The notes below the pieces were generated by a model. It worked only from the letters and a program-made list of their open reading frames with translations. It did no database searches and had not been told where the DNA came from. 64,000 nucleotides of DNA, taken from IMG/VR virus record IMGVR_UViG_3300020048_000003, one strand, 5' to 3'. The position numbers and the translations under genes were made by a program. Positions 49-27,576 of this stretch are shown piece by piece (within the stretch, counting starts at the first letter, position 1; the number at the start of each line of letters is the position of its first letter). This DNA is from a virus.

Positions 49-133
49 GCCGTAATGAGCGGAGTTGGTCTATCGCAGTTGGCTCATATCCAACCGTCTT
101 AAGTGACATCGTGTGTTCGAATCACACTTACGG
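49..133 (+). tRNA. tRNA, CAT anticodon loop (Met/Ile2-type), with an unusually long variable region
   Basis: Acceptor GCCGTAA/TTACGGT. Anticodon stem GTTGG/CCAAC with loop CTCATAT. T-arm GTGTG-TTCGAAT-CACAC. Variable region of about 16 nt. Confidence 0.5.
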
Positions 134-150
134 TACAAATATATATACAT

Positions 151-224
151 GGTCTTGTATATCAATTGGTTAGATTGCAAACCTGATAAGTTTGAGGTTG
201 GAGGTTCAAGTCCTCCCAAGACTA
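151..224 (+). tRNA. tRNA-Ile (GAT)
   Basis: Acceptor GGTCTTG/CAAGACT. Anticodon stem CAAAC/GTTTG with loop CTGATAA. T-arm GGAGG-TTCAAGT-CCTCC. Confidence 0.6.
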
Positions 225-235
225 CAAAAACAAAT

Positions 236-314
236 GCTGCTGTATCCCCGCTGGCTTATATCCAGTCATTAACAAGGTAATTGGTGTATGTGGGTTCGAG
301 TCCCTCCAGCAGTA
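236..314 (+). tRNA. tRNA-like gene, isotype unresolved
   Basis: Acceptor GCTGCTG/CAGCAGT and a canonical T-loop GGTTCGAGTCC. The anticodon arm could not be folded confidently by eye. Confidence 0.35.
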
Positions 315-319
315 CAAAT

Positions 320-401
320 AGTGATGTAATCAGCCGATCCTGATAAGATCGAGAACTGTAATTGGTTTTGAAACTGTGAGTTCGAGTCTCACCTTCACTA
401 C
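320..401 (+). tRNA. tRNA-like gene with anticodon loop CTGATAA (GAT) and a long extra arm
   Basis: Anticodon stem CGATC/GATCG. T-arm GTGAG-TTCGAGT-CTCAC. Acceptor AGTGATG/CTTCACT with one mismatch. Confidence 0.4.
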
Positions 402-600
402 AATGAAATAATATAAATATAGTATAAACAATTAAATTATGAAAGGAAAGACACTAAATTAATCTGAATGTGAGAAACCCGCCCTGCCTCGCTAGCAAGG
501 GAATGGCTGTTCAAGACTGCGTACTGTTGAGAGGTGGTATGAGGGTAAATGTCAGATGATTGTCAAAATAGCGTAACAGAAATAAATTTAAAATAGTAAG

Positions 601-688
601 TACTCGTTGCTTTAGTTGGCCGAAAAGTCCAGACTGTTAATCTGGTAAGGTTTATCCTTCATCGTAGGTTCGAATCCTACCGAGTGCG
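601..688 (+). tRNA. tRNA, type-II-like, anticodon loop CTGTTAA (GTT)
   Basis: Acceptor GTACTCG/CGAGTGC. Anticodon stem CCAGA/TCTGG. Long variable arm AAGGTTTATCCTT. T-arm GTAGG-TTCGAAT-CCTAC. Confidence 0.5.
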
Positions 689-873
689 CATTTTGACAGT
701 ACCAATGTATCATTAACTTAATCGCGGGGATGCATACTCTTTCGTTGTTACGACTGAGCGTTCGGGTTCAAAGATAGAGGAAAGCGGTTGATACCCCTAT
801 ACCAATTAAAATTTAGAGATTTAAAGAAAACTTCCAGCAATAAAAAAAACTTTGACTGTTAATCAAATCCAAA

Positions 874-1164
874 ATGTTTTCTGTTCTCTTTTTTTTTTAT
901 TTTGAAATTATTTTATATCTTTATAAAATGATAGAATTAATTTGTCCAAGATATAGAGTTTGTAAATTTAGATGTGAGCATAAATTTCTTCATCAACAAA
1001 ATGACTCCTGTAAGCTTATATGTGTATCAGGGAACTGTAATTGTGTATCATCATCGGTATATTATAGAAAAGAAAAATTAGAAAAAATTAAAAATTATGG
1101 GTGTTCAGGAGAAAATACAACAGGAGAACTTAATCTTAAAGAGTTTAAAAAGAGAAATTCTTAA
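874..1164 (+). CDS. small hypothetical protein, family A
   Basis: ORF track. Carries the RKEKLEKIKN motif immediately before the next ATG at 1097. Confidence 0.3.
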   Translation: MFSVLFFFYFEIILYLYKMIELICPRYRVCKFRCEHKFLHQQNDSCKLICVSGNCNCVSSSVYYRKEKLEKIKNYGCSGENTTGELNLKEFKKRNS

Positions 1165-1309
1165 ACATGCTAAAAAGAATGAAACTTATCACTATTGGGA
1201 TATATCTGGTTTATCCGATTCTATGGTGAAAAGTATAGTTGTTGAGTTAGAAAAAGATGGTAAGAATGTAAATAGTAAGGGACCAAATTATAAAATTATA
1301 AGGTGGTAA
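1097..1309 (+). CDS. small hypothetical protein
   Basis: ORF track. Its ATG directly follows the A-rich family A junction element. Confidence 0.35.
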   Translation: MGVQEKIQQENLILKSLKREILKHAKKNETYHYWDISGLSDSMVKSIVVELEKDGKNVNSKGPNYKIIRW

Positions 1310-1313
1310 TATA

Positions 1314-1408
1314 TTGCAGATTAGAGAAGTGGCTGTAATCCAGAGAAGATACTTATCTCGTCCCCGCGCATGAAGGGGAAGAGCCGTGGTTCGATTCCAC
1401 GATCTGCG
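1314..1408 (+). tRNA. tRNA, type II (long variable arm), isotype unresolved
   Basis: T-arm CGTGG-TTCGATT-CCACG. Variable-arm hairpin TCCCC-GCGCATGAA-GGGGA. Acceptor 3' strand ATCTGCG. Confidence 0.45.
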
Positions 1409-1500
1409 ACAATTTGTTTTTAAGAGATAATTTTAAATAGTAAACCCTATCTTCATAAAAAACATGAAAGTGCTTCTGAAGAGATAAAAATGATAATGAG

Positions 1501-1974
1501 ATGAAATTTGGTGTAGCGATTTTGATAATTGAAAGTATGTTTCATAAAAGAGAAATAAAACTTAGTGGAATGGATTTCGGCTGGGGAAATGGGTATGTGT
1601 TATTACCAAAAAATCATCCTTTATATGGAGAAGATTATGATGCTGTTTCGGTTAATACTATTGATATTCATGGTGGATTAACTTATGGTTGTGAGTTTGA
1701 TTCAAATCATTTTATTAAATGGATAAATAGTAGAGAAATTGATGGTGATGTTACTATGAACAATTATCAGAAATTTAATGGTTATTGGATGTTTGGCTTT
1801 GATACTTCCCATTTGGGTGATAGTTTACTTACTTGTCCAAAATCATATGTTATGAGTCAGACCATCAATCTTTTAGAACAATGTATAAGTGATGATATAT
1901 ATAATATTCAAAAATATAAAAGATTCTATCAAAGAAAAGATAAATTAAAAAAGATAGATTTATTAAGTGAATAA
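1501..1974 (+). CDS. hypothetical protein, family A
   Basis: ORF track. C-terminal RKDKLKKIDLLSE tail. The stop abuts the tRNA at 1975. Confidence 0.5.
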   Translation: MKFGVAILIIESMFHKREIKLSGMDFGWGNGYVLLPKNHPLYGEDYDAVSVNTIDIHGGLTYGCEFDSNHFIKWINSREIDGDVTMNNYQKFNGYWMFGFDTSHLGDSLLTCPKSYVMSQTINLLEQCISDDIYNIQKYKRFYQRKDKLKKIDLLSE

Positions 1975-2053
1975 GCCTCTGTATTAGCCTTGTCTTCGAA
2001 ACAAGAGACGTATAATAGGAACGAAAATGTGGGTTCGAATCCCACCAGAGGTT
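1975..2053 (+). tRNA. tRNA-like gene, anticodon loop CTTCGAA (TCG, Arg?), reduced D-arm
   Basis: Acceptor GCCTCTG/CAGAGGT. Anticodon stem CTTGT/ACAAG. T-arm GTGGG-TTCGAAT-CCCAC. Confidence 0.45.
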
Positions 2054-2120
2054 CAACATCTTAATCTATGAAAATAGAAAAATACGAGTTTTAATTATTT
2101 ATATATAGAAATAAAACAAT

Positions 2121-3110
2121 ATGAATAATTTTAATTGTAAAATATGTGGAAAAGAATATCCATTATTATTAAGTTTTAGTAAACATTTAGCAAATAAACA
2201 TAAATATAATGGAGGATTAGTACAATATTATATTGATTATGAAAATTTCATAGTTCCTAAATGTATTTATTGTGATAATGAGGCTAAAAGAAAAGAAGGA
2301 TTAGAGTATAGAAAAACTTGTGGTGATAAAAATTGTATTAAAAAATTAAATATTAACAAAAAACACACAGAAGAAACAAAATCACAAATTAGTAAAAAAT
2401 TAATTGAGTCTCATAAAAAAGGTGAGCATTCTGGTTGGGATTTTATTAATAAGGATTTGAATAGAAGAAGTTATCCAGAAAAATGGTTCATTAAGAATGT
2501 ACTAGAAAAATATTCTTTTTATTACAAATATACAATAGAAGAAAAATTTCCTTTTGGTAAGTATTGGCTAGATTTTGCTATTATTGATATGAAAATTGAT
2601 ATAGAAATAGATGGTCAACAACATTTTAGAACGATTGATGCTATTGAACATGATAAAGAAAGAGATGAATTTGTGTTGAGTAAAGATTGGAAAGTATATA
2701 GAATTGCTTGGATTGAATTGAAAAATAATAGAGAAGATGTTGTTGATGATTTTTTAAATTGGATTGAACAAAATGAAATTAAATATCATAAATATGATGT
2801 TGATGAAATTGTTCATAAATTTAAAAAAAATAATTATCGAACTTATGATGTTAAAAAAATTAAACCATCAAAACATAAAAAATCTATTGAATATTTTTCA
2901 GATAGAAAAAATCAATATGATTTGAGGCAAATTCCTAATATAGAAAAAATTATTAATAGTGATATTGATTTTTCAAAAGAAGGTTGGGTAAAAAAGGTTT
3001 CTATTCTAATTGGTATATCAGAGAATAAAGGTTCGGGTTGGATGAAAAGAAACATGAATGAATTTTTTATTAATAATTGTTGGAAAAGAAAATCAAAGAA
3101 GGTCTTGTAG
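2121..3110 (+). CDS. homing-endonuclease-like protein (zinc-finger N-terminus, NUMOD3-like motif, C-terminal Vsr/DUF559-like endonuclease fold)
   Basis: CxxC...CxxC at the N-terminus. HTEETKSQISKKL resembles NUMOD3. IEIDGQQH...DKERDEFVLSKDWKVYRIAW resembles the DUF559/Vsr-like nuclease fold. The 3' end overlaps the tRNA at 3101. Confidence 0.5.
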   Translation: MNNFNCKICGKEYPLLLSFSKHLANKHKYNGGLVQYYIDYENFIVPKCIYCDNEAKRKEGLEYRKTCGDKNCIKKLNINKKHTEETKSQISKKLIESHKKGEHSGWDFINKDLNRRSYPEKWFIKNVLEKYSFYYKYTIEEKFPFGKYWLDFAIIDMKIDIEIDGQQHFRTIDAIEHDKERDEFVLSKDWKVYRIAWIELKNNREDVVDDFLNWIEQNEIKYHKYDVDEIVHKFKKNNYRTYDVKKIKPSKHKKSIEYFSDRKNQYDLRQIPNIEKIINSDIDFSKEGWVKKVSILIGISENKGSGWMKRNMNEFFINNCWKRKSKKVL

Positions 3111-3172
3111 TTCAACGGATAGAATTAAAATTTGCGGAATTTTAGATATGAGTTCGATTCTCATCAAGATCA
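3101..3172 (+). tRNA. tRNA (anticodon loop TTGCGGA, GCG, Arg?)
   Basis: Acceptor GGTCTTG/CAAGATC. T-arm ATGAG-TTCGATT-CTCAT. D-loop AACGGATAGA. Confidence 0.5.
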
Positions 3173-3197
3173 CAAAATTTAAGAATAAATTTAACAT

Positions 3198-3443
3198 ATG
3201 AAATATTGTCCAAGACATGGTGAAGTTGAGCCAGGATTTCTTTTAATAGAGACTTCTAGTGGTTCGTTTAGTATAGAACAAAATGATTGTCCAATTGACA
3301 ATTGTTTTGAAGATTGTTTTGATATGCCCTTATCAAATAGCACAAAAGAAGAACTTAAAATATATCAGAAGTATGTGGTACAATCTGAAAGAGTAGAAAA
3401 ACTTAAAAAACTCAAAAAATTTCCAAGATATTTTTTTTATTAA
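3198..3443 (+). CDS. small Cys-rich hypothetical protein, family A
   Basis: ORF track. C-terminal tail ...VEKLKKLKKF. Confidence 0.4.
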   Translation: MKYCPRHGEVEPGFLLIETSSGSFSIEQNDCPIDNCFEDCFDMPLSNSTKEELKIYQKYVVQSERVEKLKKLKKFPRYFFY

Positions 3444-3484
3444 AAACTTTTTTATACTTTTGTATTATAATTAATAAAATAAAT

Positions 3485-3567
3485 GCCCCGATGGTGAAAT
3501 AGGTAGACACGTAAGACTTAAAATCTTATTCTCATTGCGAGAGTGCCGGTCCGATTCCGGCTCGGGG
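3485..3567 (+). tRNA. tRNA-Leu (TAA)
   Basis: Acceptor GCCCCGA/TCGGGGT. D-arm GGTGAAATAGGTAGACAC. Anticodon stem TAAGA/TCTTA with loop CTTAAAA. Long variable arm. T-arm GCCGG-TCCGATT-CCGGC. Confidence 0.7.
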
Positions 3568-3678
3568 TACAAAATCAAAAATAGAAAAAACTTAATAAAA
3601 AATAATACTATATAATAATATGAAAAATATCTTAAACATAGTTCAACAACAACAGATTTAGGTCTGATTGGGTTAACT

Positions 3679-3951
3679 ATGTCTTTTTTTACCCAATCTC
3701 CTGAGGATTGGGTTTTTTATTTTAAAATAATTTGGAATATGGAAAATAATAAAGGAAGAAGAAATGAAATAACAAAATTAAAATGGAAGAAAAGAATTTC
3801 ATTTTTAAGAACACAATATAATGTTGAAGAACCTGCAAAATTATATTGCTATAAGACAACTGGAAAACCTTGTAGTTGTCCTATGTGTTCACCTTATAAA
3901 TATGATAGAAATGAAAAGCATAAAAAGAATTTTGAAGATGATGTTCAGTAA
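3679..3951 (+). CDS. small Cys-rich hypothetical protein
   Basis: ORF track. Confidence 0.35.
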   Translation: MSFFTQSPEDWVFYFKIIWNMENNKGRRNEITKLKWKKRISFLRTQYNVEEPAKLYCYKTTGKPCSCPMCSPYKYDRNEKHKKNFEDDVQ

Positions 3952-4000
3952 AAATGTGTTTTCATTTAAAATGAAAACGATAAAATAATGAACAAATATT

Positions 4001-4071
4001 GTCCTGTGGTGTAATTGGCTAGCACGAAACACTTTGACTGTTTTAGATAAAGTTCGAATCTTTACAGGACA
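4001..4071 (+). tRNA. tRNA-Gln (TTG)
   Basis: Acceptor GTCCTGT/ACAGGAC. Anticodon stem AAACA/TGTTT with loop CTTTGAC. Confidence 0.6.
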
Positions 4072-4077
4072 ACACAT

Positions 4078-4165
4078 TGACCTATGATGGAAAAGAGTAG
4101 ACATACCAGGTTTTGACCCTGGTGCCCCAACGGGTGTGAAGGTTCGAGTCCTTCTAGGTTAGCCA
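4078..4165 (+). tRNA. tRNA, type II, with a genomically encoded CCA; anticodon loop TTTTGAC
   Basis: Acceptor TGACCTA/TAGGTTA. Anticodon stem CCAGG/CCTGG. Variable-arm hairpin. T-arm GAAGG-TTCGAGT-CCTTC. Ends GCCA. Confidence 0.5.
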
Positions 4166-4168
4166 TAT

Positions 4169-4242
4169 TGACCCGTAGAATAATTGCGTAGTTCGTCACC
4201 CTTTGAAGGTGTATGGTATTGGTTCGAGTCCAATCCGGTCAA
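4169..4242 (+). tRNA. tRNA (anticodon loop CTTTGAA, TTG)
   Basis: Acceptor TGACCCG/CCGGTCA with one mismatch. T-arm ATTGG-TTCGAGT-CCAAT. Confidence 0.5.
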
Positions 4243-4247
4243 CATAT

Positions 4248-4321
4248 TATCCAATAGCACAATCGGTGGTTGCAACTGCCTCTGAAGCAGTAGGTTATAG
4301 GTTCAAGTCCTATTTGGATAA
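4248..4321 (+). tRNA. tRNA-Gln (CTG)
   Basis: Acceptor TATCCAA/TTGGATA. Anticodon stem ACTGC/GCAGT with loop CTCTGAA. T-arm ATAGG-TTCAAGT-CCTAT. Confidence 0.55.
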
Positions 4322-4324
4322 CTT

Positions 4325-11577: not shown

Positions 11578-14500
11578 TTAGAAAATATAACGTACTCCAA
11601 CTTGTGCTCCCCAAGTACTTTGAGTTGAAAGTACAGGTGTGAATGTTGATGTTGGTAATGAAGAACCAGTATAATTCATTTGATAATGAGGAATACCATC
11701 TGTTCCAGTTTTACTCATTTTTAATAAAGTAATATCATATGAACCTAAGGTTTGTTTTTGATAGATACCCCAACTTGAGTTTAGTAAATTTCCAACATTT
11801 AATAAATCTAAGCTTATTTGTAATGTTTGTCTTTTATTATTTTTACCTACTCCTGTAAATATATCTTGTAAAAGTTTTACATCAAATCTATTTACCCAAG
11901 GCATAATAACACCATATCTCTCAGCATATTGTCCTTTGTTTTCTGATAAGTATTCATCTTGATCAACATAAGCCCAGAAAGCAGCATTTTGTTCTTCTGA
12001 TGTAAATATTGTTTCAAATGTACCATCTGCTAATTTTTTAGTAATAGGATCAAAAATTATTTCGGACTCATCTTTAGGAATATACATAAGGTCAGCGGCA
12101 TTACCATCACCGTTCATGTCATTTGAATAGATATAATCTAAACGACCTTGGCTACTACCTTGATATACTAATGATACTGAAGTTCCTAAATGTTTAAGAT
12201 ATTCTTTATGATAAGTTACTGAACCTATAACTCTGTTAGGTACAGCGAATTGTGAATAACTTAATTCTAAAGCATTTTGACTTGCTACTGTTGGATTGCT
12301 TGCCCATGCTGATGATGCTGCGGAACCTGGATTTGAAGTAAAGTCTTTTACACCAAAGTGTGTATAAGCAATAAAGCCACTAAATCCATTTTGGAATTGT
12401 TTACTTAACTGTGCGGTTAATGAATATGAGTATCCATTTTCAATTGAAAGTTCATTAGTTAGAACCATTGCGTTGCTAACTCCTGGATTGATTTTGCGAG
12501 TAGCAGAGAAGTATCTTGGTCGCATATCTGGACCATTGAATGTTGCGGTGCTATCTTTTTGGTTTGCATTATATTGAATAACATCATTGATATTATTTGA
12601 ATACATACCTTCAAATGTTCCAACAATACCCCAAGGTAATTTAACATCAACTGCTAAATTAGTTCTCCAAACTTGTGGCATTTTGAATTTTGGATCAACA
12701 ACAGCAATAGAGCCAGGTGCAACACTTGATGGTTGACTTGGAAATAATGTTGTGTTGGATAAGTGATAGAAAGGATCTGGATTGAAAGTTAAATCTACTA
12801 ATTGAGCAGCTTTTGTAACTTCAACTGTGTTTTGTAGAGTTCCAGAATTTGTTGGTTGGTTTGTGAACCATACAAATGGTAATCTACCTGTAAAAACTCC
12901 TGAACCTCCTCGTACTTGAAGTGATTTATCTCCCTTAACATCCCAGTTAAAACTTACTCTAGGAGAGAAGGTGGGTTTGGATTCGGGCCATTTGCCAGCA
13001 TCTAATGTTAAATCTTCACCATTTAAATCTTTGAAAGTTAAATCTGTGATTGATGGATTAGGAATTAAATTATCAAAATATATTGGTAGTTCAATTCTTA
13101 AGCCTGCTGTTACTTTCAAATTATCTAAAATTTGAATTTCATCTTGTCCATAAAGAGCAGCGTAGCCAAAGGTTAATTCAGCATATCCATTTCCTGCGCC
13201 TTCATAAGGATAAGTTAGACCAAATGTAGTAGGAATTCCACCATTATAAAAATCATCCATAGATGCATATCTATAATAGCTTGTTCCATATCTTTTGTAA
13301 CTATTAGCAAAATACATTTGATCATAAGATGCACCTATTGTAAATGTGTGCATTCCCATATAATAGTTATAGTTATTAATAAAAGTTAATGTGTTATTTT
13401 TTACATCATTATCTTTTGTAAATAATTCATAACCAAATGACATGTAAGGATCTCCATCTTTATAAATATCAACAAATGGAAAAGGTGAACTGTTACTATT
13501 TCTAGTATCTTGAATTTTAGTATAAGTAAATAAGAATTTATTTGCAGATTTACCCCAAACACTATTTAATTCTGCTGATACTGAACCTACTGTATTAAGA
13601 AATCCATAATTAGAATTACTGAATGCCATAGATTTTTCTCCAATACGACCAAATGTTGAACGAGTTCCTGGTGCACTTGTTGCATTAACTTGTTGATCGT
13701 TAGTTGATTCAACATAGTTATATCTAACAGCGAATTTGTGATGTTGGTTAATATTCCAATCAATTTTTCCTAAAATTTTGTAATTATTACTTTCAAAATT
13801 TCCAAAATTTTGATAACTTCCAGCATCATATTGATATGTATTTTTGAGATAATCACTCATAACTGACATATCAGTAGCAGTTGTTCTAGAAATATAATTC
13901 GCAGCATCTGGTTCAATACCATTTTCTGGATCGCTTACACTCCAAGGAATTCCTGGATATGATGATTTTTCCTTTTCTGCGTTAAAGAATATAAATAATT
14001 TATTCTTTATAATTGGTCCTCCTACTGATGCTCCGTAACTAAGTGTACTTTGATCGGTTAGTGTTAACTCTTTATCTTCTACTTTTTTTCCATTGAAGGA
14101 TTTATCACGGAAATAAGTATAAGCGGTTCCTTTCCATTCGTTAGTACCACTTTTAGTAACAGCATTAATATTTGCACCTGTAAAATTTGACTGTCTAATA
14201 TCAAATGGTGCGACATTTACGCTAATTTCTTCAATAGCATCTAAACTAATTGGTTGTGCATCACCACCTGGTAGTGATTTTGTGCTTAGTCCGAAGTTGT
14301 TGTTGAAGTTTGCACCGTCAACTGTGATGTTATTGTATCTTCCATCACGACCTGCAAAACTGGTTCCGTTGGATTGTGGTGTCATTTTAGTGAAATCTGT
14401 AATACTTCTATTGATAGAAGGTAATGCTTTGATTTCAGCCAAATTGATGTTTGTTGATGCTCCAGTTTTATTACCATCAATTAATTGATTTTTTTGTGCT

Positions 14501-14925
14501 GTTACTTCAACACCTGTAATTTCACTGGCATTTTGAGATAGTGTTTCATTTAATCCTAGTGTTTGTCCTAAGTTTAAATTGATATTTTCCTCAACAATTG
14601 GTTTGTAGCCAACGTAGGATATGGTTAGTGTGTAAGGTCCTCCAACTTTTAAGTTAGTAATTCGGTAGAGCCCATCCACATCTGTAACTGTGCCGTATTG
14701 TGTTCCTGTTGGAACATGAACTAATACAACACTTGCACCTGGCAATGAGACTTTGTTTTCTCCATATATCTTACCACTTATACCTGAAGTGGTAACTTGA
14801 GCAAACATTATCAAACTGCTAAATGAGAACAATAGAAAAAAGATTAATCTTTTTAGGTTTTTTGTCATAGTTTTGATTTTTTTTTTGACTTCCCGCGGAA
14901 TTACGAGAGTTATCATTTTTATCAA
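11578..14925 (-). CDS. TonB-dependent outer-membrane receptor (Bacteroidetes type: CarbopepD_reg N-domain, plug, 22-strand barrel)
   Basis: Signal peptide. N-terminal domain VTTSGISGKIYGENKVSLPGASVVLVHVPTGTQYGTVTDVDGLYRI. Plug-like region. C-terminus ends ...VGVRYIF. GC is noticeably higher than flanking DNA. Confidence 0.85.
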   Translation of the reverse strand: MIKMITLVIPREVKKKIKTMTKNLKRLIFFLLFSFSSLIMFAQVTTSGISGKIYGENKVSLPGASVVLVHVPTGTQYGTVTDVDGLYRITNLKVGGPYTLTISYVGYKPIVEENINLNLGQTLGLNETLSQNASEITGVEVTAQKNQLIDGNKTGASTNINLAEIKALPSINRSITDFTKMTPQSNGTSFAGRDGRYNNITVDGANFNNNFGLSTKSLPGGDAQPISLDAIEEISVNVAPFDIRQSNFTGANINAVTKSGTNEWKGTAYTYFRDKSFNGKKVEDKELTLTDQSTLSYGASVGGPIIKNKLFIFFNAEKEKSSYPGIPWSVSDPENGIEPDAANYISRTTATDMSVMSDYLKNTYQYDAGSYQNFGNFESNNYKILGKIDWNINQHHKFAVRYNYVESTNDQQVNATSAPGTRSTFGRIGEKSMAFSNSNYGFLNTVGSVSAELNSVWGKSANKFLFTYTKIQDTRNSNSSPFPFVDIYKDGDPYMSFGYELFTKDNDVKNNTLTFINNYNYYMGMHTFTIGASYDQMYFANSYKRYGTSYYRYASMDDFYNGGIPTTFGLTYPYEGAGNGYAELTFGYAALYGQDEIQILDNLKVTAGLRIELPIYFDNLIPNPSITDLTFKDLNGEDLTLDAGKWPESKPTFSPRVSFNWDVKGDKSLQVRGGSGVFTGRLPFVWFTNQPTNSGTLQNTVEVTKAAQLVDLTFNPDPFYHLSNTTLFPSQPSSVAPGSIAVVDPKFKMPQVWRTNLAVDVKLPWGIVGTFEGMYSNNINDVIQYNANQKDSTATFNGPDMRPRYFSATRKINPGVSNAMVLTNELSIENGYSYSLTAQLSKQFQNGFSGFIAYTHFGVKDFTSNPGSAASSAWASNPTVASQNALELSYSQFAVPNRVIGSVTYHKEYLKHLGTSVSLVYQGSSQGRLDYIYSNDMNGDGNAADLMYIPKDESEIIFDPITKKLADGTFETIFTSEEQNAAFWAYVDQDEYLSENKGQYAERYGVIMPWVNRFDVKLLQDIFTGVGKNNKRQTLQISLDLLNVGNLLNSSWGIYQKQTLGSYDITLLKMSKTGTDGIPHYQMNYTGSSLPTSTFTPVLSTQSTWGAQVGVRYIF

Positions 14926-17082: not shown

Positions 17083-17898
17083 ATGTTTACTTTAAAAGAA
17101 TTGCAAGATAAAGTTGAAAAAGGAATATCAGAATACATAGGTTTTGATGTGAATAAAATTTTTGAACAATCTGATTATATTACAATTTATGGTGGTGCTG
17201 TCCGTGATAGTCTTGCTGGTGTTGAAATACACGATATAGATATTTTATGTATGCCAAATTCTGCACATAAACTTAAAACCTATCTTAATTCAGTTGGTTA
17301 TGAATCACTTGATTTATATGACCCTGATACTTTGAATATGTATCATGGTATATCATTAATTTCAGAACCTTGGACCCTTATGAATGATAAAAAGAAAATT
17401 ATTCAAATTATTAGACCAAGATGGAATGGACAACTTTATAGAAAAGGTAAAATTAGTGAATATCATGCGGCTGAAGTGACAAATTATCAACTAGCATATT
17501 ACAATTTAATAAAAAATGTTGATATTTCTTGTTGTGGTGTATTTTTAGAAAATCATGATAGAGAAATTAGGTTAAGAGAGGCTTGTAAAAATTCAATAAT
17601 TAATTGCTTATCTCAAACTTATACAGTTAACAAATGGGCAAAATTATATAGTTCAAATAGAACTGAAAATAGAAAACACAAATTATCAACTAGAGGTTGG
17701 ATAGAACTTGATCAAGCTATATCTATTAGTAGTCCATATACTCCGGCTCATAAAATATTCTTAAAAAAAGAAAGATTATTCAAAATTATGAATTTAGAGT
17801 TTAATCCTGAGTATAATTATAAAATTTGGACAGAAGAAGAATATTTAAATAGAATTAAACCTTTTGAGCCTATTGATATTTGGGATTTACTCAAATAA
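17083..17898 (+). CDS. Pol-beta-type nucleotidyltransferase, tRNA CCA-adding/poly(A) polymerase head-domain family
   Basis: IYGGAVRDSLAGVEIHDIDIL matches the GGxVRD...DxD head-domain signature. Confidence 0.55.
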   Translation: MFTLKELQDKVEKGISEYIGFDVNKIFEQSDYITIYGGAVRDSLAGVEIHDIDILCMPNSAHKLKTYLNSVGYESLDLYDPDTLNMYHGISLISEPWTLMNDKKKIIQIIRPRWNGQLYRKGKISEYHAAEVTNYQLAYYNLIKNVDISCCGVFLENHDREIRLREACKNSIINCLSQTYTVNKWAKLYSSNRTENRKHKLSTRGWIELDQAISISSPYTPAHKIFLKKERLFKIMNLEFNPEYNYKIWTEEEYLNRIKPFEPIDIWDLLK

Positions 17899-17902
17899 AA
17901 AA

Positions 17903-17930
17903 GCCAGATTTTTTCTGGCTTTTTTTCTTA
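17903..17930. terminator. bidirectional rho-independent terminator
   Basis: AGCCAGA-TTTTTT-CTGGCT with a T-run, between convergent genes. Confidence 0.55.
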
Positions 17931-17935
17931 AAGTT

Positions 17936-18709
17936 CTATTTTTTACTCCAAGTTTCAAATTCTTTTACTATTTCTAATAATTTTGGATCCAATTTTTCAT
18001 ATGCTTCATCTGAAATTGAGGTTGGTATTCCATAAAATGCTTGTGCTATTCCACCAGCCATACAACCTGTTGTATCGCAATCACCACCTAACCATATAGT
18101 TAGACGAATACAATCTTCGTAATTTTTACTTTCCAAGAAACATACAATTGCTTCTGGTACAGAACCTTGACAAGTTTCTTGAAACCAATAATCTGGTTTC
18201 CGTTCGGCAATAGTTGTATCAAGGTCGTAATCAAAATTATTTTCAATATAATTTTTTATTTCTTGTTTACCTTGTCCAGTTCTTGCTAAGAAGATAGCAG
18301 CGGCAATTGCTTGTGCGCCTTTAATTCCTTCTGGGTGATTATGTGTAACTTCGGCACTTTTCTTTGCCATTTCCAATGTTTTTTCCAATGTATCATAGGC
18401 AAATCCAATTGGACTAATTCGCATTGCGGAGCCATTACCAAAACTATTGTATGGTTGTGGATCTGAGAAATCTATCCATTTTTTGAACATTCCGCCATAT
18501 CCAGCATTTCGGAACATTCTTGCATATTTTTGATATGTTTCTGTGAAATCTAAGTTGTGCATTATACAATCTGCTGTTGCTACGGATAAAACTGTATCAT
18601 CAGTAAATTTAGATTTTTCAGAAAAAAGTGGAAAATCATTTTTTTCACCTTTCCAATTTTTGAATTCATATACGGAGCCTATAATATCTCCTGCGATTGC
18701 ACCTATCAT
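17936..18709 (-). CDS. ADP-ribosylglycohydrolase (DraG/ARH family)
   Basis: MIGAIAGDIIGS...TDDT...GGDCDTTGCMAGGIAQAFYG match the family signatures. Confidence 0.7.
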   Translation of the reverse strand: MIGAIAGDIIGSVYEFKNWKGEKNDFPLFSEKSKFTDDTVLSVATADCIMHNLDFTETYQKYARMFRNAGYGGMFKKWIDFSDPQPYNSFGNGSAMRISPIGFAYDTLEKTLEMAKKSAEVTHNHPEGIKGAQAIAAAIFLARTGQGKQEIKNYIENNFDYDLDTTIAERKPDYWFQETCQGSVPEAIVCFLESKNYEDCIRLTIWLGGDCDTTGCMAGGIAQAFYGIPTSISDEAYEKLDPKLLEIVKEFETWSKK

Positions 18710-18737
18710 AATTTTTTATTTTAAAATAGTGAGAAAA

Positions 18738-19067
18738 TTAAGAAAAGTTTAGTTCTTTAATTTTTTGTAATTTTTTCTGACGATTTTGATTCTTCATTTT
18801 TCTTTCTAATTGAAGAATTTTATTATCACTCCATTTATTAAATATCATATCTCTTATATGACTAAAATCGTTATCAGCAAGAAATCTTTCAACTTTTGTT
18901 ATTTCTAAATCACGATCACCAGAAAGTGTATATTCAATATCCATTACATGTAGAATAAAGTCTCTAACTTTTATGAGAGATAATGAAGAAAGATAATTTT
19001 TTAATTCAACTATCTCAATAGGATTTAGTTTTGCGACTAATACTATATTTAAATCAAATTTTTTCAT
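18738..19067 (-). CDS. hypothetical protein, family A
   Basis: C-terminal tail ...RQKKLQKIKELNFS. Confidence 0.45.
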   Translation of the reverse strand: MKKFDLNIVLVAKLNPIEIVELKNYLSSLSLIKVRDFILHVMDIEYTLSGDRDLEITKVERFLADNDFSHIRDMIFNKWSDNKILQLERKMKNQNRQKKLQKIKELNFS

Positions 19068-19069
19068 AA

Positions 19070-19711
19070 TTAGAATTTATAAAGTTTAGTAGGTTTACGA
19101 CTTTTTAACATATGGAGGCTCATGTTCATTTCAGAAATTCCTTTTTCTAATTTAGCTTTGTCTCCTATTCTTTTAAGAACCCATCCTTCAAGCATGTCAA
19201 CTAATGTGATTTTTTTCCAAAGTTCTAAGAAATTTTCATAGAAAGTTTTTACTCTATACACATTTTCATTAATTTTATAGAGATAATCATTTTCATCAAC
19301 AGTACCGAAAAGTTCATCAAGTAATTTTACTCTTTCTTCAAATGTAGTACCAATAAGATATTCACCATTATAAACCAAAATGTCAAAAATTACAAATTTG
19401 TGATTCCAAGGTTTACCATCAATTCCTTTTTTATTTTTATTCATGTATTCGCCAACAATAACATTCCAGTTATCATTACCGCAATTAAGAACTTCTAAGT
19501 CATTGATTTTCAATTTGAAATTTGATAAATTCTCATTTTCATGTCTACCAAAATTTTTGAAATCTTTTCCTTTTATGTAGATAGTGCAACATGAACCATT
19601 CAATTTTGGTTGACCTAAATACATACCTTCATATTGTCCAAGTTTTTCTGGATTAGTTGTGTACTCTGGACGAGGAGGATAGTAGTACTTAAAACGAGTA
19701 TATGGTTGCAT
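19070..19711 (-). CDS. minimal ATP-dependent ligase (DNA/RNA ligase nucleotidyltransferase superfamily)
   Basis: Motif I KLNGS around the Lys. Motif III VIVGEY. FDIL. Motif IV EGWVLK. A class-1 promoter lies upstream. Confidence 0.55.
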   Translation of the reverse strand: MQPYTRFKYYYPPRPEYTTNPEKLGQYEGMYLGQPKLNGSCCTIYIKGKDFKNFGRHENENLSNFKLKINDLEVLNCGNDNWNVIVGEYMNKNKKGIDGKPWNHKFVIFDILVYNGEYLIGTTFEERVKLLDELFGTVDENDYLYKINENVYRVKTFYENFLELWKKITLVDMLEGWVLKRIGDKAKLEKGISEMNMSLHMLKSRKPTKLYKF

Positions 19712-19765: not shown

Positions 19766-20089
19766 TTAACTTTTATACCAAGGTTTATATTTCTTGATTT
19801 GTTCTAGTTTTATTTTTCTTTTTACTTTAATATCAACAATCACTTCTTTTGGTTTGAATTTATAAAATTTTGATTTTTCAAAAATTGATATTCTATCATT
19901 TATAAACTTGAGTCTAAATCCTTCGCAGTAGCTAAAATTAGACCAACGGTAAGCTTTGGAAATATCCTGAGTAATCTCGTATGAATAACCAAGAGGTCTC
20001 TTCCTAAAGGTTTTAATGTAGCCTACGAAAGTTTGCTCATTTTTAATTTCAATTACATAAATACCTGATTTAAATTTTATTTCTTTCAT
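19766..20089 (-). CDS. hypothetical protein, family A
   Basis: C-terminal tail KRKIKLEQIKKYKPWYKS. Confidence 0.45.
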   Translation of the reverse strand: MKEIKFKSGIYVIEIKNEQTFVGYIKTFRKRPLGYSYEITQDISKAYRWSNFSYCEGFRLKFINDRISIFEKSKFYKFKPKEVIVDIKVKRKIKLEQIKKYKPWYKS

Positions 20090-20374: not shown

Positions 20375-20887
20375 ATGAAAACAACAAATAATAAAATACT
20401 TCCTTTTTCAATATTTGAAGGGTATGATGATGGTGATATTGGTATAGAAAATAAAAAAGAGACTGTTGAGAAATTAAATAAACTATTATCTAATTATTTC
20501 ATTTTATATATGAAGTTATTAAATTTTCATTGGAATATTGTTAGTAAAAGATTTAATAATATTCATAAATTCTTTGAAGAACTTTATGATAAAATTTTTG
20601 AAAATATTGATAGTGTTGCAGAAAGAATTAGAATAATTGGTGGTAGACCTATAAGTAGTTTGGAAGGCTATTTAAAAAATACGGACTTGAAAGAAAATAC
20701 TGATTCAGATGTTCCTGATGTTGATAAAATGATAGAAGAAATTCTCTATGATTATGAAACAATAATAAAAGAAATTAGAGATTATTTAAGTGATGATTTA
20801 GATAATGGTACAAGTAAATTTTTAGAAGATTTAATTGAAGCACACGAAAAAGACGCATGGATGTTAAGATCAAATTTAGAGAATTAA
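20375..20887 (+). CDS. Dps-like ferritin (DNA-protection-during-starvation family)
   Basis: LNFHWNIVSKRFNNIHKFFEELYD...IDSVAERIRIIGGRP matches the Dps signature NFHWNVKG...HE.FEE.Y...D.IAERI..LGG. Confidence 0.65.
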   Translation: MKTTNNKILPFSIFEGYDDGDIGIENKKETVEKLNKLLSNYFILYMKLLNFHWNIVSKRFNNIHKFFEELYDKIFENIDSVAERIRIIGGRPISSLEGYLKNTDLKENTDSDVPDVDKMIEEILYDYETIIKEIRDYLSDDLDNGTSKFLEDLIEAHEKDAWMLRSNLEN

Positions 20888-21677: not shown

Positions 21678-22685
21678 TTATTGAAAAGTTTGATTATTTA
21701 TTACAGGATTTTCGTTTATATTAAGTACATTTACTGTTACTGTTGCTGAACTTGATAGAGCCGGTGTACCATTATCAATTACTTTAATCACTAATGCGAA
21801 AGATGGTGTTGTTTCATAATCAAGTTGAGAAGGATTAGTTACAAGTAATGCACCTGTTGCGGCATTTATAGAGAATGTGCCACCCGTATTTCCAGACTCA
21901 ATTGAGAAAGTTTTTGTTTGTCCAGCATCAGGATCAGTGGTGACAATAGTTCCAACTAATGTGGCATTTGCAGAATTTTCATTCACATTAAATGTTTGAT
22001 TATTAATAACTGGTGTTTCGTTTACATTAAGTATATTAACTGTAATTGTTGCTTGTGCAGATAGTGGTACAGTTGCATTGTCTTGTACTTTTACAACAAT
22101 AGGAATGGATTGAACTGTTTCATAATTCAATATTGGAGAATTAAAAACTGTTAATACTCCTGATGTTGCGTTTATTGCAAATACTCCTCCAGTGTTTCCT
22201 GATACGATAGAATATGTTTTTGTTTGTCTTGCTTCTGGGTCCGTAGCAACTACGGTACCAATTACTGTACTATTTGATGAATTTTCATTTATACTAAATG
22301 TTTGAGGTGCAATACTTGGCACAGTATTATATTCATTTAATGTGATAAGATAAGTAGAAAATTTAGGATCTGGTAGACCATTTGTTGTACCATTATCTAA
22401 TAGTTTAAGTGTGAAAGTAAATGTAGTTAATGTACTATTATTTATTGCTGTAGCGTCATTTACAAATATATCACCAAGTGTATTTTTCCATAGTGTCTGT
22501 GTTTCTACTATACTCCAAGTAATTGTGTTATTTTCAGGATCACAACCTGTAAAATGTTCAACTTGTAAGTTGGCTGTTACTGGTTTATAGAAATTTATTG
22601 GTTTTACTACATATGTAGGACATATAGTTTGACTGAAGCCAATGAATGACATTAGCATTAAGATGATTGTAAATAATTTTTTCAT
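21678..22685 (-). CDS. secreted cadherin-like repeat protein
   Basis: Signal peptide. Tandem ~95-aa repeats containing SGNTGGVFAINATSGVLTV..NYETVQS, a cadherin-like L.YE signature. Confidence 0.55.
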   Translation of the reverse strand: MKKLFTIILMLMSFIGFSQTICPTYVVKPINFYKPVTANLQVEHFTGCDPENNTITWSIVETQTLWKNTLGDIFVNDATAINNSTLTTFTFTLKLLDNGTTNGLPDPKFSTYLITLNEYNTVPSIAPQTFSINENSSNSTVIGTVVATDPEARQTKTYSIVSGNTGGVFAINATSGVLTVFNSPILNYETVQSIPIVVKVQDNATVPLSAQATITVNILNVNETPVINNQTFNVNENSANATLVGTIVTTDPDAGQTKTFSIESGNTGGTFSINAATGALLVTNPSQLDYETTPSFALVIKVIDNGTPALSSSATVTVNVLNINENPVINNQTFQ

Positions 22686-23371: not shown

Positions 23372-23857
23372 TTAATAATTTTGAGTAAGAACTAATTTAT
23401 ATGCAACATTATAAACTCTGCTACCGTGATTGCTACAACTTGATGGATGAAGGGGTTTTCTACATTTATGATATGTAGCACCACATACAGGACAAGTTAA
23501 GGTGTATTTTACAATTTTTTTAAGAGACTTTGCACGACCTTCTTCACCATCTTTATATTTTTCAGCGCCATGACAACGTTTTCCATCACCACCAAGTTCT
23601 ATACATTTGGCTTTCCAAACTTTATCATGATTGTGTATAGGAGTTAATGCGTGTGCAATTTCGTGTAAGATAGTATCTTTGATTGCCCAATCAGTCATTA
23701 AAGGAACAAGATATTGAGAAAGTTCAATTTGTTTATCGGTGTAATCACAACAACCGAAGGCTCTTTTCCTTCTATTGGTAGTTACAGTCCAATTTTTCAA
23801 TTCGCTATGATTTTTCAGTAAATTTTTTGTTAGTGTAATTGCCTGATTTATAGTCAT
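23372..23857 (-). CDS. SprT-like zinc metalloprotease with a C-terminal zinc ribbon
   Basis: HEIAHAL HExxH motif. C-terminal CPVCGATYHKC...C..H. Confidence 0.55.
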   Translation of the reverse strand: MTINQAITLTKNLLKNHSELKNWTVTTNRRKRAFGCCDYTDKQIELSQYLVPLMTDWAIKDTILHEIAHALTPIHNHDKVWKAKCIELGGDGKRCHGAEKYKDGEEGRAKSLKKIVKYTLTCPVCGATYHKCRKPLHPSSCSNHGSRVYNVAYKLVLTQNY

Positions 23858-24408: not shown

Positions 24409-25014
24409 TTAACGGGTTTCTTTCAACATAAGAACTGGGTTGATATCACCAATAAGTCCTTCAACATCACCATTTCCTACGGTGAAAGCTTCGTTGATTG
24501 CATCTGACTTAATGTTATAGGTAACACGGTTGGTAAAAAGTTCTTCTTTTTCAGCATCGGTCATAAAGTCGTTTGCTTCACCAAGGATCAGTTCTTCAAT
24601 TTTCTCGGCATATTTGCGATAAAGTTCGTCATTCATAATGAGTTCTGATTTTTCTTCAACGAAAGTTTCGCCATATTTTTCACGAAGTTCAGTTGCGCGG
24701 TCTTCGTCCATTGCTCCGGTATATTTCTTTACAACGATGAACATAACTTTGTCACCATTTTCTGATTCAACTTTAATTGATTCAGGATTGCGTTTCAGTT
24801 TGGTATACATTTTCTTGTATTCATCAAGAGCGGTTGCTTTGATTTCACCTTCAACTGATTTCTGCTCGGCAGTCAGGTCTTTAATGTCGTTTTTCACTTT
24901 ATTGAATTTTGCAAGTTTTTCTGCAAAATCAGCACCTTTTACAACTGCAACTGGGTGTAAGTCTTTCTTTACAGTTTCTTTTTTTGCTACTACGGTTTTC
25001 TTTCCTAATGCCAT
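24409..25014 (-). CDS. Lys/Glu-rich hypothetical protein, probably highly expressed
   Basis: Two tandem class-2 promoter copies lie upstream. Higher GC than its neighbours. Confidence 0.5.
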   Translation of the reverse strand: MALGKKTVVAKKETVKKDLHPVAVVKGADFAEKLAKFNKVKNDIKDLTAEQKSVEGEIKATALDEYKKMYTKLKRNPESIKVESENGDKVMFIVVKKYTGAMDEDRATELREKYGETFVEEKSELIMNDELYRKYAEKIEELILGEANDFMTDAEKEELFTNRVTYNIKSDAINEAFTVGNGDVEGLIGDINPVLMLKETR

Positions 25015-26667: not shown

Positions 26668-27576
26668 ATGGATAAATTAGGATACGCTTGTATAAACACA
26701 ACATTAGCAGAAAAAGATATTACTGTTAATAGAGGTATGGTTCAGAGAACATTTAAGACTAAAGGTCTAAATTATGTTTCTGAACTTATCATTCTTAACG
26801 TTCAAGATTTTATATCTATAATTGAATGGAATGAAAAAAATAATATCAAGAATTATAGAATGAGTTCTGATATGTTTCCGTGGTTCACTCACTATAATTT
26901 AGAAGATTTGCCTCAGTATCAAAAAATAAAATTTTTGATGAAAACTGCTGGCAATTTAGCAAAAAAGTATAATCATAAATTAAGTTTTCATCCAGGTCCT
27001 TTTAATTGCTTGGCATCACCAAATCCTGATGTTGTTAAGAAAACTATTTTTGAATTAAATCAACATTCAAATTTAATTGACTTATTAGAACTTGATGAAA
27101 GTCCGTTTTATAATATTAATATTCACATAGGAGGCGTTTACGGTGATAAAATAGGTACGATGGAGAGATTTATTGAAAATTTTAACCTACTCTCAGAACC
27201 CACCAAAAAGCGGTTAACTTTAGAAAATGATGATTCAAATGGTTATACTGTAAAAGATTTATATACAGTTCATCAACGAACTAATATTCCAATTGTTTTT
27301 GATACATTACATTACTATTGTAATCCAGGTGATATGAGTTATGAAGATAGTTTTAATCTTGCATACTCTACTTGGAATAGTATTATTCCTGAAATACATC
27401 ACGCATCAAGCAAGAAGTTATATGAAGATGTAAAGGCAACTATTAAAACACATGCTGATTACATATTTGATGAAATAAATACTTGTGGAAAAGATGTTTA
27501 TGTTACTATTGAAAGTAAGGCAAAAGAATTAGCTTTACTGAAATATAGAAAAGATTATCATAAATTATATTCATAA
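26668..27576 (+). CDS. uvdE: UV damage endonuclease (UvdE/UvsE family)
   Basis: MDKLGYACINTTL...NYRMSSDMFPW plus His-rich C-terminal barrel residues typical of UVDE. Confidence 0.65.
   Translation: MDKLGYACINTTLAEKDITVNRGMVQRTFKTKGLNYVSELIILNVQDFISIIEWNEKNNIKNYRMSSDMFPWFTHYNLEDLPQYQKIKFLMKTAGNLAKKYNHKLSFHPGPFNCLASPNPDVVKKTIFELNQHSNLIDLLELDESPFYNINIHIGGVYGDKIGTMERFIENFNLLSEPTKKRLTLENDDSNGYTVKDLYTVHQRTNIPIVFDTLHYYCNPGDMSYEDSFNLAYSTWNSIIPEIHHASSKKLYEDVKATIKTHADYIFDEINTCGKDVYVTIESKAKELALLKYRKDYHKLYS

What the first reader, a model, noticed from the sequence alone, without database searches (positions are those of the whole stretch)
17083..19711. Nucleotidyltransferase (CCA/poly(A)-polymerase head), ADP-ribosylglycohydrolase and minimal ATP-dependent ligase in one neighbourhood
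ADP-ribosylglycohydrolases reverse ADP-ribosylation. A phage copy could undo host ADP-ribosyltransferase defences that modify DNA, RNA or protein, or reset phage-directed ADP-ribosylation. The truncated CCA-type nucleotidyltransferase and the 213-aa ligase (KxNG, EGWVLK) suggest RNA and tRNA end repair, comparable to T4 Pnkp/Rnl countering anticodon nucleases. The combination next to a large tRNA set is suggestive but unproven.
Basis: inference. Interest (0 to 1): 0.6.

Follow-up and report, generated by a model that had tools for sequence, protein, structure and literature searches.

The report
Three unlinked repair-type enzymes, huge phage
A giant bacteriophage carries, side by side, an ADP-ribose-removing enzyme, a stripped-down DNA-ligase-like enzyme and a shortened tRNA-nucleotidyltransferase-like enzyme; all three look functional, but comparison with hundreds of related phages shows they are neighbours by local gene order, not a conserved repair system.

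Summary
Window 17083-19711 encodes a 271-aa Pol-beta nucleotidyltransferase whose predicted fold matches the head and neck of class II CCA-adding/poly(A) enzymes. [quoted passage not shown]

The interpretation as one RNA/tRNA-repair plus anti-ADP-ribosylation module is only partly supported.
- The same phage contig carries a separate, clear RNA-ligase-family gene (PF09414) about 7.5 kb beyond the window's right end.
- No Pnkp, RtcB or ART gene was found in the window.
- Among 88 other ligase loci, the ARH is nearby in one. Among 80 phage ARH loci, the ligase is nearby in none.
- The NTase lies near the ligase only in the window's own narrow clade (5 of 33 NTase loci). In four other huge phage contigs the two genes lie about 175-300 kb apart.

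The ARH sits in a variable cargo slot. The OB-less ligase family (at least 1381 metagenomic clusters, no cultured phage) and the mini class-II-like NTase family (590 representative clusters) are uncharacterised variants of known enzyme kinds. Interest is moderate.

The parts
17083..17898 (+). NT271: a 271-aa Pol-beta-superfamily nucleotidyltransferase with a class II (CCA-adding/poly(A) polymerase) head and neck, and no body or tail domains
17936..18709 (-). ADP-ribosylglycohydrolase (ARH/DraG family), 257 aa, with an intact di-metal site; an orphan with no ART partner found
   Evidence: PF03747 E 4e-37. PDB hits are ARH3, DraG and Tri1. Invariant residues are E15, T36 D37 D38, N92-R97, H123/H125, D210 D212 T213. 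It is about 60% identical to bacterial ARHs of several phyla. No ART was found in the window.
18738..19067 (-). orf109: a 109-aa ORF of unknown function, 2 bp downstream of the ligase and 28 bp upstream of the ARH
   Evidence: There is no significant Pfam, PHROG, NCBIfam or PADLOC hit. tblastn finds it in none of the 89 ligase loci.
19070..19711 (-). Lig213: a 213-aa adenylation-domain-only, DNA-ligase-like covalent nucleotidyltransferase with no OB domain
19766..20089 (-). orf107: a 107-aa ORF on the same strand, 54 bp upstream of the ligase; probably the first gene of the minus-strand run orf107-ligase-orf109-ARH
   Evidence: It has only weak PHROG hits of unknown function. Co-transcription is inferred from spacing alone; the promoter and terminator scan was uninformative.
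49..4322 (+). Context only: the 3' part of a tRNA gene array (11 genes in the window, at least 19 on the contig); 10 of the 11 lack an encoded CCA end
   Evidence: ARAGORN results and inspection of the 3' ends.

Best explanation
The region is a stretch of accessory genes in a huge phage (contigs of 209-286 kb, about 27% G+C). Three apparently active enzymes lie together through local gene order. They are not a conserved system.

(1) Lig213 is a minimal ATP-dependent ligase. Lys36 would be adenylylated, AMP passed to a 5'-phosphate, and a 3'-OH/5'-P nick sealed. DNA is the most likely substrate. Because the enzyme lacks the OB domain, it probably needs a partner or has low intrinsic affinity for its substrate.

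(2) NT271 is a cut-down class-II-type template-independent nucleotidyltransferase. It most likely adds ribonucleotides to RNA 3' ends. One plausible target is the phage's own tRNAs, whose genes lack CCA.

(3) The ARH is a bacterial-type, metal-dependent ADP-ribose eraser acquired horizontally. It sits in a variable cargo slot between the other two genes. It removes ADP-ribose from a macromolecule or small molecule that is not identified here. That could be a counter to host ADP-ribosylating defences or a reset of phage-made ADP-ribosylation.

Shown: gene identities, intact motifs, fold relationships, and the lack of conserved linkage. Inferred: substrates, co-transcription and biological roles.
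For: Identity and integrity of the enzymes.

DNA-type ligase:
- In clade C phages the ligase lies 2 kb upstream of a DNA polymerase.
- The window neighbours Dps, SprT-like and UvdE are DNA-protection or DNA-repair genes.
- A distinct PF09414 RNA ligase exists elsewhere on the same contig.

No conserved linkage:
- Among 89 ligase loci, the ARH is present only in L001, and in a different gene order. NT271 is present only in the 10 loci with the closest ligases, at least 55% identical.
- None of 80 ARH loci holds the ligase or NT271.
- Only 5 of 33 NT271-family loci hold the ligase.
- In four huge contigs that hold both genes, the two loci lie about 175-300 kb apart (contig ranges).

Variable slot between the ligase and NT271: it holds ARH plus orf109 here, GH16 plus GGACT in L007, ARH plus GH16 in the P0243 contig, and small ORFs in L004 and L006.

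Horizontal origin of the ARH: it is 58-62% identical to ARHs of Firmicutes, Bacteroidota and Eremiobacterota, but only 48% identical to the ARH of the 735-kb phage.

The tRNA genes lack an encoded CCA.
Against: - Two apparently independent ARH acquisitions ended up within 1 kb of the same ligase family, in the window and in L001. This is somewhat more than chance would predict.
- In another ligase clade the ligase is flanked, apparently in one operon, by a different Pol-beta NTase (18 loci) and an ADPRase-like Nudix (38 loci). Some ligase-NTase and ligase-ADP-ribose-enzyme cooperation may therefore exist in this family.
- The ligase, orf109 and the ARH are separated by only 2 and 28 bp and are probably co-transcribed.
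- DNA versus RNA specificity cannot be read from a fold. Adenylation-only ligases such as DRB0100 have resisted assignment in vitro (PMC1997131).
- I could not check whether the phage has another DNA ligase.
Confidence: 0.55

Rival explanations
1. The three enzymes form one nucleic-acid end-repair module aimed at RNA or tRNA, comparable to T4 Pnkp/Rnl. NT271 restores lost 3' nucleotides, Lig213 seals the break, and the ARH removes ADP-ribose placed by host defences.
For: - NT271 has the class II tRNA-NTase fold.
- The phage has a large tRNA set without encoded CCA.
- RNA-ligase-associated Pol-beta NTases (RlaP) are an established theme in jumbo phages, and RlaP adds 1-2 nucleotides to damaged RNA (PMC7824862; PMC12776372).
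- D. radiodurans has an operon of an adenylation-only ligase, a macro domain and PNKP (PMC1997131).
- Clade B has an NT197-ligase-Nudix operon.
- The ligase, orf109 and ARH are tightly spaced.
Against: - The ligase fold is DNA-ligase-like, not RNA-ligase-like.
- A separate PF09414 RNA ligase lies elsewhere in the genome.
- No kinase/phosphatase healing enzyme or RtcB was found in the window.
- NT271 does not match RlaP (PF10127), and it is transcribed convergently to the ligase.
- Linkage is lost outside a narrow clade.
- The tRNA array is 12.8 kb away.
Confidence: 0.15
2. A DNA end-repair module. Lig213 and a terminal nucleotidyltransferase act on broken phage DNA, as Pol X/TdT works with Lig4 or the LigD POL domain works with the LigD ligase domain. 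They would work alongside the neighbouring UvdE, SprT-like and Dps genes.
For: - The best profile and fold matches include Lig4, Lig3 and the LigD ligase domain.
- DNA-repair or DNA-protection genes lie within 8 kb.
- The ligase sits in a replication-module context in small phages.
Against: - No Ku gene was found.
- NT271-ligase linkage is not conserved.
Confidence: 0.15
3. The ARH is the immunity or 'reset' partner of a phage-encoded ADP-ribosyltransferase, as in DraT/DraG-like or Tre1/Tri1-like pairs. It would not be a counter-defence enzyme.
For: - In 23 of 80 phage ARH loci, a protein of about 512 aa lies immediately upstream of the ARH (median -60 bp). Its sequence carries a C-terminal R-S-E-type ART motif (YRG, STS and E-x-E read by eye); I read its N-terminal part as MuF-like, without running a family search on it.
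- ART-ARG pairs are described in phages (PMC9503650).
- A related 501-kb phage has an ART-PolyVal gene 6 kb from its ligase.
Against: - No ART was detected in the 64-kb window by Pfam annotation or tblastn.
- Bacterial orthologues are also orphans, next to MFS transporters or a Nudix.
- The rest of the genome could not be searched.
Confidence: 0.15

Closest known systems
ARH3 / DraG / Tri1 family of ADP-ribosylglycohydrolases (PF03747)
   Same: It shares the fold family, the di-metal site (TDD...DxDT), the catalytic Glu and the NGSAMR and HNH motifs.
   Different: It is shorter (257 aa against about 300-350). It belongs to a very large bacterial subfamily of about 255 aa with unknown substrate. 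It has no ART partner nearby.
Minimal ATP-dependent DNA ligases (Chlorella virus ligase, bacterial Lig E) and the adenylation domains of Lig1/3/4 and LigD
Deinococcus radiodurans DRB0098-DRB0100 operon (PNKP, macro domain, adenylation-only ligase)
   Same: An adenylation-domain-only ligase is encoded beside an ADP-ribose-binding or -processing enzyme and an end-modifying enzyme. DRB0100 self-adenylates but showed no ligation in vitro (PMC1997131).
   Different: DRB0100 starts with the 'KYP' motif and has the EKLDG lysine motif, like the phage's other small ligase (L092:1804-2424, PF09414) and unlike Lig213. The ADP-ribose enzyme there is a macro domain, not an ARH, and the healing enzyme is a kinase/phosphatase, not an NTase.
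RlaP (PF10127), the RNA-ligase-associated Pol-beta nucleotidyltransferase of RNA-repair operons and jumbo phages
   Same: The theme is the same: a Pol-beta NTase encoded near a ligase (PMC7824862, PMC12776372).
   Different: NT271 gives no PF10127 match and has a class-II-type fold. Its proximity to the ligase is confined to one narrow clade.
Class II tRNA nucleotidyltransferases (CCA-adding, A-adding, CC-adding enzymes, bacterial poly(A) polymerase)
   Same: It has motif A (GGxVRD...DxD) and the head and neck architecture.
   Different: It has no body or tail tRNA-binding domains and no recognisable EDxxR motif. Pfam PF01743 scores below threshold. It belongs to a separate family of proteins of about 200-340 aa.
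Orphan ADP-ribose erasers used by phages as counter-defence (NADAR AdfN against DarTG1)
   Same: It is a stand-alone eraser enzyme of bacterial origin carried by a phage without the cognate transferase (PMC11825919).
   Different: The fold family is different (ARH, not NADAR or macro). No activity on DNA or RNA is shown for this subfamily.

Membership tests
ADP-ribosylglycohydrolase (PF03747; ARH/DraG) | Profile match above the curated threshold | tested here: met
   128.8 bits against a cut-off of 26.2, covering residues 1-228. phrog_6572 E 2.3e-58.
ADP-ribosylglycohydrolase (PF03747; ARH/DraG) | Di-metal-binding Thr/Asp clusters (TDD... and DxDT) and the catalytic Glu | tested here: met
   E15, T36, D37, D38, D210, D212 and T213 are invariant in 25 sequences. 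They align to the ARH3 motifs in the PDB alignment.
ADP-ribosylglycohydrolase (PF03747; ARH/DraG) | Hydrolysis of an ADP-ribosyl linkage, and identity of the substrate | not testable with these tools
   This needs enzyme assays.
ART-ARH toxin/immunity pair | An ADP-ribosyltransferase gene adjacent to the ARH | tested here: not met
   No ART appears in the Pfam annotation of the window. There is no tblastn hit with two phage ART queries.
ATP-dependent DNA ligase | Nucleotidyltransferase motifs I (KxDG/KxNG), III, IIIa, IV and V | tested here: met
   K36, E88, D110, E175/G176/K180, K203 and R205 are invariant, and F109 is conserved in at least 90% of sequences.
ATP-dependent DNA ligase | Adenylation-domain fold closest to DNA ligases | tested here: met
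ATP-dependent DNA ligase | C-terminal OB-fold domain carrying motif VI | tested here: not met
   The chain ends at residue 213, ten residues after motif V. The model is a single domain. All listed homologues are 173-235 aa. No conserved downstream partner ORF was found.
ATP-dependent DNA ligase | Nick-sealing activity on DNA | not testable with these tools
   This needs biochemistry.
RNA ligase of the T4 Rnl1/Rnl2 type, with Pnkp (tRNA repair) | RNA-ligase family profile or fold | tested here: not met
   The window protein gives no PF09414 or Rnl1 hit. Some homologues carry a precomputed PF09414 hit. Fold Z to Rnl2, Rnl1, Rnl3 and Rnl5 is 8.5-10.2.
RNA ligase of the T4 Rnl1/Rnl2 type, with Pnkp (tRNA repair) | A linked end-healing kinase/phosphatase (Pnkp) or equivalent | tested here: not met
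   None appears in the Pfam annotation covering the window.
Class II tRNA nucleotidyltransferase (PF01743) | Motif A (GGxVRD...DxD) and the head-domain fold | tested here: met
Class II tRNA nucleotidyltransferase (PF01743) | Profile match above the curated threshold | tested here: not met
   17.6 bits against a cut-off of 23. Homologues score 13.9-23.1 bits. The PDB profile search gives E of about 0.3, over motif A only.
Class II tRNA nucleotidyltransferase (PF01743) | Motifs B (RRD) and D (EDxxR) that select the nucleotide | tested here: inconclusive
   The conserved NVD147ISCCG resembles RRDFTINA by eye, and R193/R197/K200 are conserved. No EDxxR is seen. No residue-level structural alignment was available.
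Class II tRNA nucleotidyltransferase (PF01743) | Body and tail domains that bind tRNA | tested here: not met
   The protein is 271 aa and only 159-176 residues align to enzymes of 372-425 aa. Nearly all of the 150 best family members listed are about 200-340 aa.
RlaP (PF10127) | PF10127 profile match | tested here: not met
   There is no hit at E of 0.1 or less.
RlaP (PF10127) | Conserved genomic association with a ligase | tested here: not met
   Only 5 of 33 NT271-family loci hold the ligase within 8 kb.

The most novel reading that the evidence does not exclude
The OB-less Lig213 family is the working nick-sealing ligase of a large group of uncultivated phages. It acts with trans partners, and the ADP-ribose-processing enzymes that recur beside it prepare its substrate. 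These enzymes are the ARH here and in the 735-kb phage, and an ADPRase-like Nudix in 38 other loci. They would uncap or process nucleic-acid ends blocked by ADP-ribose on terminal phosphates, so that the ligase can seal them. This would be a phage counter-measure to end-directed nucleic-acid ADP-ribosylation. ARH3 is known to remove ADP-ribose from phosphorylated RNA and DNA ends (PMC6582358).
Probability: 0.07. Interest if true: 0.75.

Novelty: new variant of a known kind. Interest (0 to 1): 0.35.

Why it matters
The three-gene 'system' is not supported, so it adds no new defence or counter-defence mechanism.

Two by-products may interest enzymologists.

(a) There is a large family of DNA-ligase-like proteins made of the adenylation domain alone. 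It comprises at least 1381 clusters at 90% identity. It was found in five uncultured huge-phage genomes and in none of the other 50,692 GenBank phage records. If these proteins are active ligases, they would show how sealing can work without the OB domain, which is thought to be needed for adenylation and DNA clamping. They would also be the smallest such ligases that I know of.

(b) There is a family of about 590 representative clusters of mini class-II-like nucleotidyltransferases in huge phages. Its members tend to lie a few kb from tRNA-Gln genes.

The orphan phage ARH is a candidate ADP-ribose eraser of unknown target.

Tried and rejected
- A single-sequence scan of viral contigs with the ARH found nothing. 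An alignment-based scan then worked.
- hhalign between NT271 and the ligase-adjacent NT197 of clade B gave only a motif-level match (E 8.5e-4, probability 24%). I therefore did not treat them as orthologues.
- orf109 as a trans-acting OB partner of the ligase: it has no family hit and is absent from all other ligase loci.
- PADLOC gave no hits for the five window proteins.
- The promoter and terminator scan was uninformative: 29 promoter-like sites against 27.8 expected, and no terminators.
- The afdb50 fold library was unavailable.
- The cluster-2 protein of about 201 aa, which accompanies the ligase in about 29 loci and is also at window 24409-25014, has no Pfam or PHROG match.
- I could not test whether the phage has another DNA ligase such as LigA.
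- The hypothesis that NT271 and the ligase form a conserved pair was my working model. I rejected it after the reciprocal scan.
Full report
SETTING. The window is AT-rich (about 23-33% G+C in 2-kb windows). Its only DNA-level relatives in GenBank phages are uncultured huge phages of 462-735 kb and the Lak megaphages. The 271-aa NTase is 100% identical to a protein seen on metagenomic contigs of up to 286 kb. The same gene order as the window is found on a 209-kb ENA contig. The window therefore comes from a huge phage.

OBSERVATION.
- NT271: 17083-17898 (+).
- ARH: 17936-18709 (-).
- An unreported 109-aa ORF: 18738-19067 (-).
- Lig213: 19070-19711 (-).
The minus-strand genes orf107, ligase, orf109 and ARH are separated by 54, 2 and 28 bp. 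NT271 converges on the ARH with a gap of 37 bp.

ARH.
- Pfam PF03747 matches at E 4e-37 and PHROG 6572 at E 2e-58.
- PDB sequence hits are ARH3, the T. thermophilus ARH, MJ1187, DraG and Tri1.
- In an alignment of 25 homologues, the residues that build the ARH di-metal site and catalytic centre are invariant: G7-D8, S12, E15, T36-D37-D38, N92-G93-S94-A95-M96-R97, H123/H125 and D210-x-D212-T213. The enzyme looks active.
- It belongs to a very large subfamily of about 255 aa: more than 8000 clusters, about 60% identical to proteins of Firmicutes, Bacteroidota and Eremiobacterota.
- The bacterial copies examined are orphans. They lie next to an MFS transporter, and in one case next to a Nudt16-like Nudix.
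- At least 487 IMG/VR contigs carry relatives.
- In 23 of the 80 best loci, a protein of about 512 aa lies just upstream of the ARH. Its sequence shows a C-terminal R-S-E-type ADP-ribosyltransferase motif by eye, and I read its N-terminal part as MuF-like. This is the ART-ARG pairing already described for phages (PMC9503650).
- No ART is detectable in this window. Here the ARH is an orphan eraser.

LIGASE.
- Lig213 and its homologues are all about 200-235 aa (1381 clusters).
- They keep motif I (QPK36LNG), III (GE88YMNK), IIIa (FVIFD110), IV (E175GxVxK180) and V (K203xR205K).
- The AlphaFold model is confident (pLDDT 94.8) and is a single domain that stops just after motif V. The OB domain and motif VI of DNA ligases are absent.
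- Foldseek against viral models gives the same order.
- Among 50,697 GenBank phage records, the family occurs only in five uncultured huge-phage genomes.
- I found no literature on it.
- The nearest described architecture is the adenylation-only DRB0100 of D. radiodurans. That protein self-adenylates but showed no ligation in vitro, and it is encoded with a macro-domain protein and a PNKP (PMC1997131).
- DRB0100's N-terminal KYP and EKLDG motifs resemble the phage's second small ligase, not Lig213. That second ligase is a 206-aa PF09414 protein (E 2.8e-33) about 7.5 kb beyond the right end of the window on the same contig. The two ligases are not detectably similar by BLASTP.

NTASE.
- By sequence, NT271 shows only motif A of the class II enzymes.
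- It lacks the body and tail domains.
- An exhaustive profile search shows a family of 590 representative clusters. Nearly all of the 150 best listed are about 200-340 aa; only one of them reaches about 400 aa, and it matches the profile only over its first 200 residues.

IS IT A SYSTEM? I tested linkage in all three directions.

(i) From the ligase. I collected 89 loci and clustered all ORFs within 5 kb. This gave three contexts.
- In the window's clade (10 loci, ligase 55-72% identical), NT271 lies convergent, 1-3 variable genes downstream.
- In a second clade, a different small Pol-beta NTase (NT197, 18 loci) lies immediately upstream. An ADPRase-like Nudix (38 loci, median gap 44 bp) lies immediately downstream.
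- In a third clade of smaller phages, an unknown 201-aa protein precedes the ligase. In the one such locus examined (L066) a DNA polymerase follows within 2 kb.
- The ARH is near the ligase only in the 735-kb phage L001, in a different gene order. It is absent from L001's relative L070.

(ii) From the ARH. None of 80 loci holds Lig213, NT271, the Nudix or the PF09414 ligase.

(iii) From NT271. Only 5 of 33 loci, the closest relatives, hold the ligase within 8 kb. In four huge contigs that hold both genes, the loci are about 175-300 kb apart.

The slot between the ligase and NT271 carries different cargo in different relatives: ARH plus orf109, GH16 plus GGACT, ARH plus GH16, or small ORFs. The trio is therefore local synteny plus cargo insertion. 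It is not a conserved functional unit.

WHAT REMAINS SUGGESTIVE.
- The two phage ARHs next to Lig213-family genes are only 48% identical to each other, and each is closer to bacterial ARHs. They look like independent acquisitions landing near the same ligase family.
- The clade B operon places a Pol-beta NTase and an ADP-ribose-type Nudix around the ligase.
- ARH3 removes ADP-ribose from phosphorylated RNA and DNA ends (PMC6582358).
- RlaP NTases cooperate with RNA ligases (PMC7824862, PMC12776372).
These points keep a low-probability 'end uncapping, healing and sealing' reading alive. The evidence here does not establish it.

OTHER CONTEXT.
- The window's tRNA genes lack an encoded CCA.
- NT271-family genes lie within 4-7.6 kb of tRNA-Gln genes in 9 of 33 loci, against 2 of 81 ligase loci.
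- This fits an RNA/tRNA 3'-end role for NT271 that is independent of the ligase.
- Dps, SprT-like, UvdE and gp32 genes nearby fit a DNA role for the ligase.

VERDICT.
The enzyme identities and the ARH active site are right. The tRNA-repair ligase and the integrated module are not supported.
- The finding is a set of uncharacterised variants of known enzyme kinds, of moderate interest.

Noticed in passing
L092:1804-2424 (+), same contig, about 7.5 kb beyond the right end of the window: A second small ligase of 206 aa matches PF09414 RNA_ligase at E 2.8e-33. It has KYPRT and EKMDGEN motifs like D. radiodurans DRB0100. It is the better candidate for any RNA-repair ligase in this phage.
   Followed up: partly
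window 11578-14925 (-): An ORF of 1115 aa (called as 1096 aa) has CarboxypepD_reg domains and an outer-membrane beta-barrel, like a TonB-dependent receptor or SusC. This is unusual cargo for a phage genome.
   Followed up: no
window 49-4322 and L093:5765-12202: The tRNA array has at least 19 genes, including four tandem tRNA-Gln at 4000-4322. Ten of the 11 window tRNA genes lack an encoded CCA. Several ARAGORN calls are 86-96 nt long, and one has an odd ATA 'Tyr' anticodon; these may be introns or false calls.
   Followed up: partly
L181, L183-185, L188, L190, L203, L205, L212 (NT271-family loci): tRNA-Gln genes lie 4-7.6 kb from NT271-family genes in 9 of 33 loci (about 6 of 25 after rough de-replication), against 2 of 81 ligase loci. 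Fisher p is about 0.005, on rough counts. In the window, the tRNAs nearest to NT271 are also tRNA-Gln.
   Followed up: partly
L171:4420-5958 and 22 other ARH loci (L097-L176): A protein of about 512 aa lies immediately upstream of the ARH in 23 of 80 phage ARH loci. It has a C-terminal R-S-E ADP-ribosyltransferase motif, and its N-terminal part looks MuF-like by eye. This looks like a head-packaged ART toxin with an ARH antidote.
   Followed up: partly
L021-L053 (for example L034:7388-7981, 8001-8633, and the Nudix downstream): In another clade of huge phages the ligase sits in an apparent operon: NT197 (a small MNT-like Pol-beta NTase), the ligase, then an ADPRase-like Nudix. A SHOCT-domain protein and an M28 peptidase follow.
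   Followed up: partly
window 24409-25014 (-); L001:6738-7463; L066:61-666: An unknown protein of about 201 aa has no Pfam or PHROG match. It accompanies the Lig213 family in about 29 loci, usually just upstream, and also occurs 4.7 kb from the ligase in the window.
   Followed up: partly
window 20375-20887 (+), 23372-23857 (-), 26668-27576 (+), 40604-41545 (-): Dps/ferritin-like, SprT-like, UvdE (UV damage endonuclease) and gp32-like SSB genes lie near the finding. Together they form a loose set of DNA protection and repair genes.
   Followed up: no
window 21678-22685 (-): A 335-aa protein has cadherin repeats and a signal-peptide-like N-terminus. It may be a surface or adhesion protein encoded by the phage.
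   Followed up: no
L178:7599-8795 and L179: In a 49-kb phage contig, an ARH 65-67% identical to the window's lies between a 121-aa receiver-domain protein (Response_reg) and a 3'-5' exonuclease-like gene. The receiver-domain protein may be the 'cRec' type discussed in PMC7824862. Receiver-domain genes also lie 3-7 kb from the ligase in L004 and L006.
   Followed up: no
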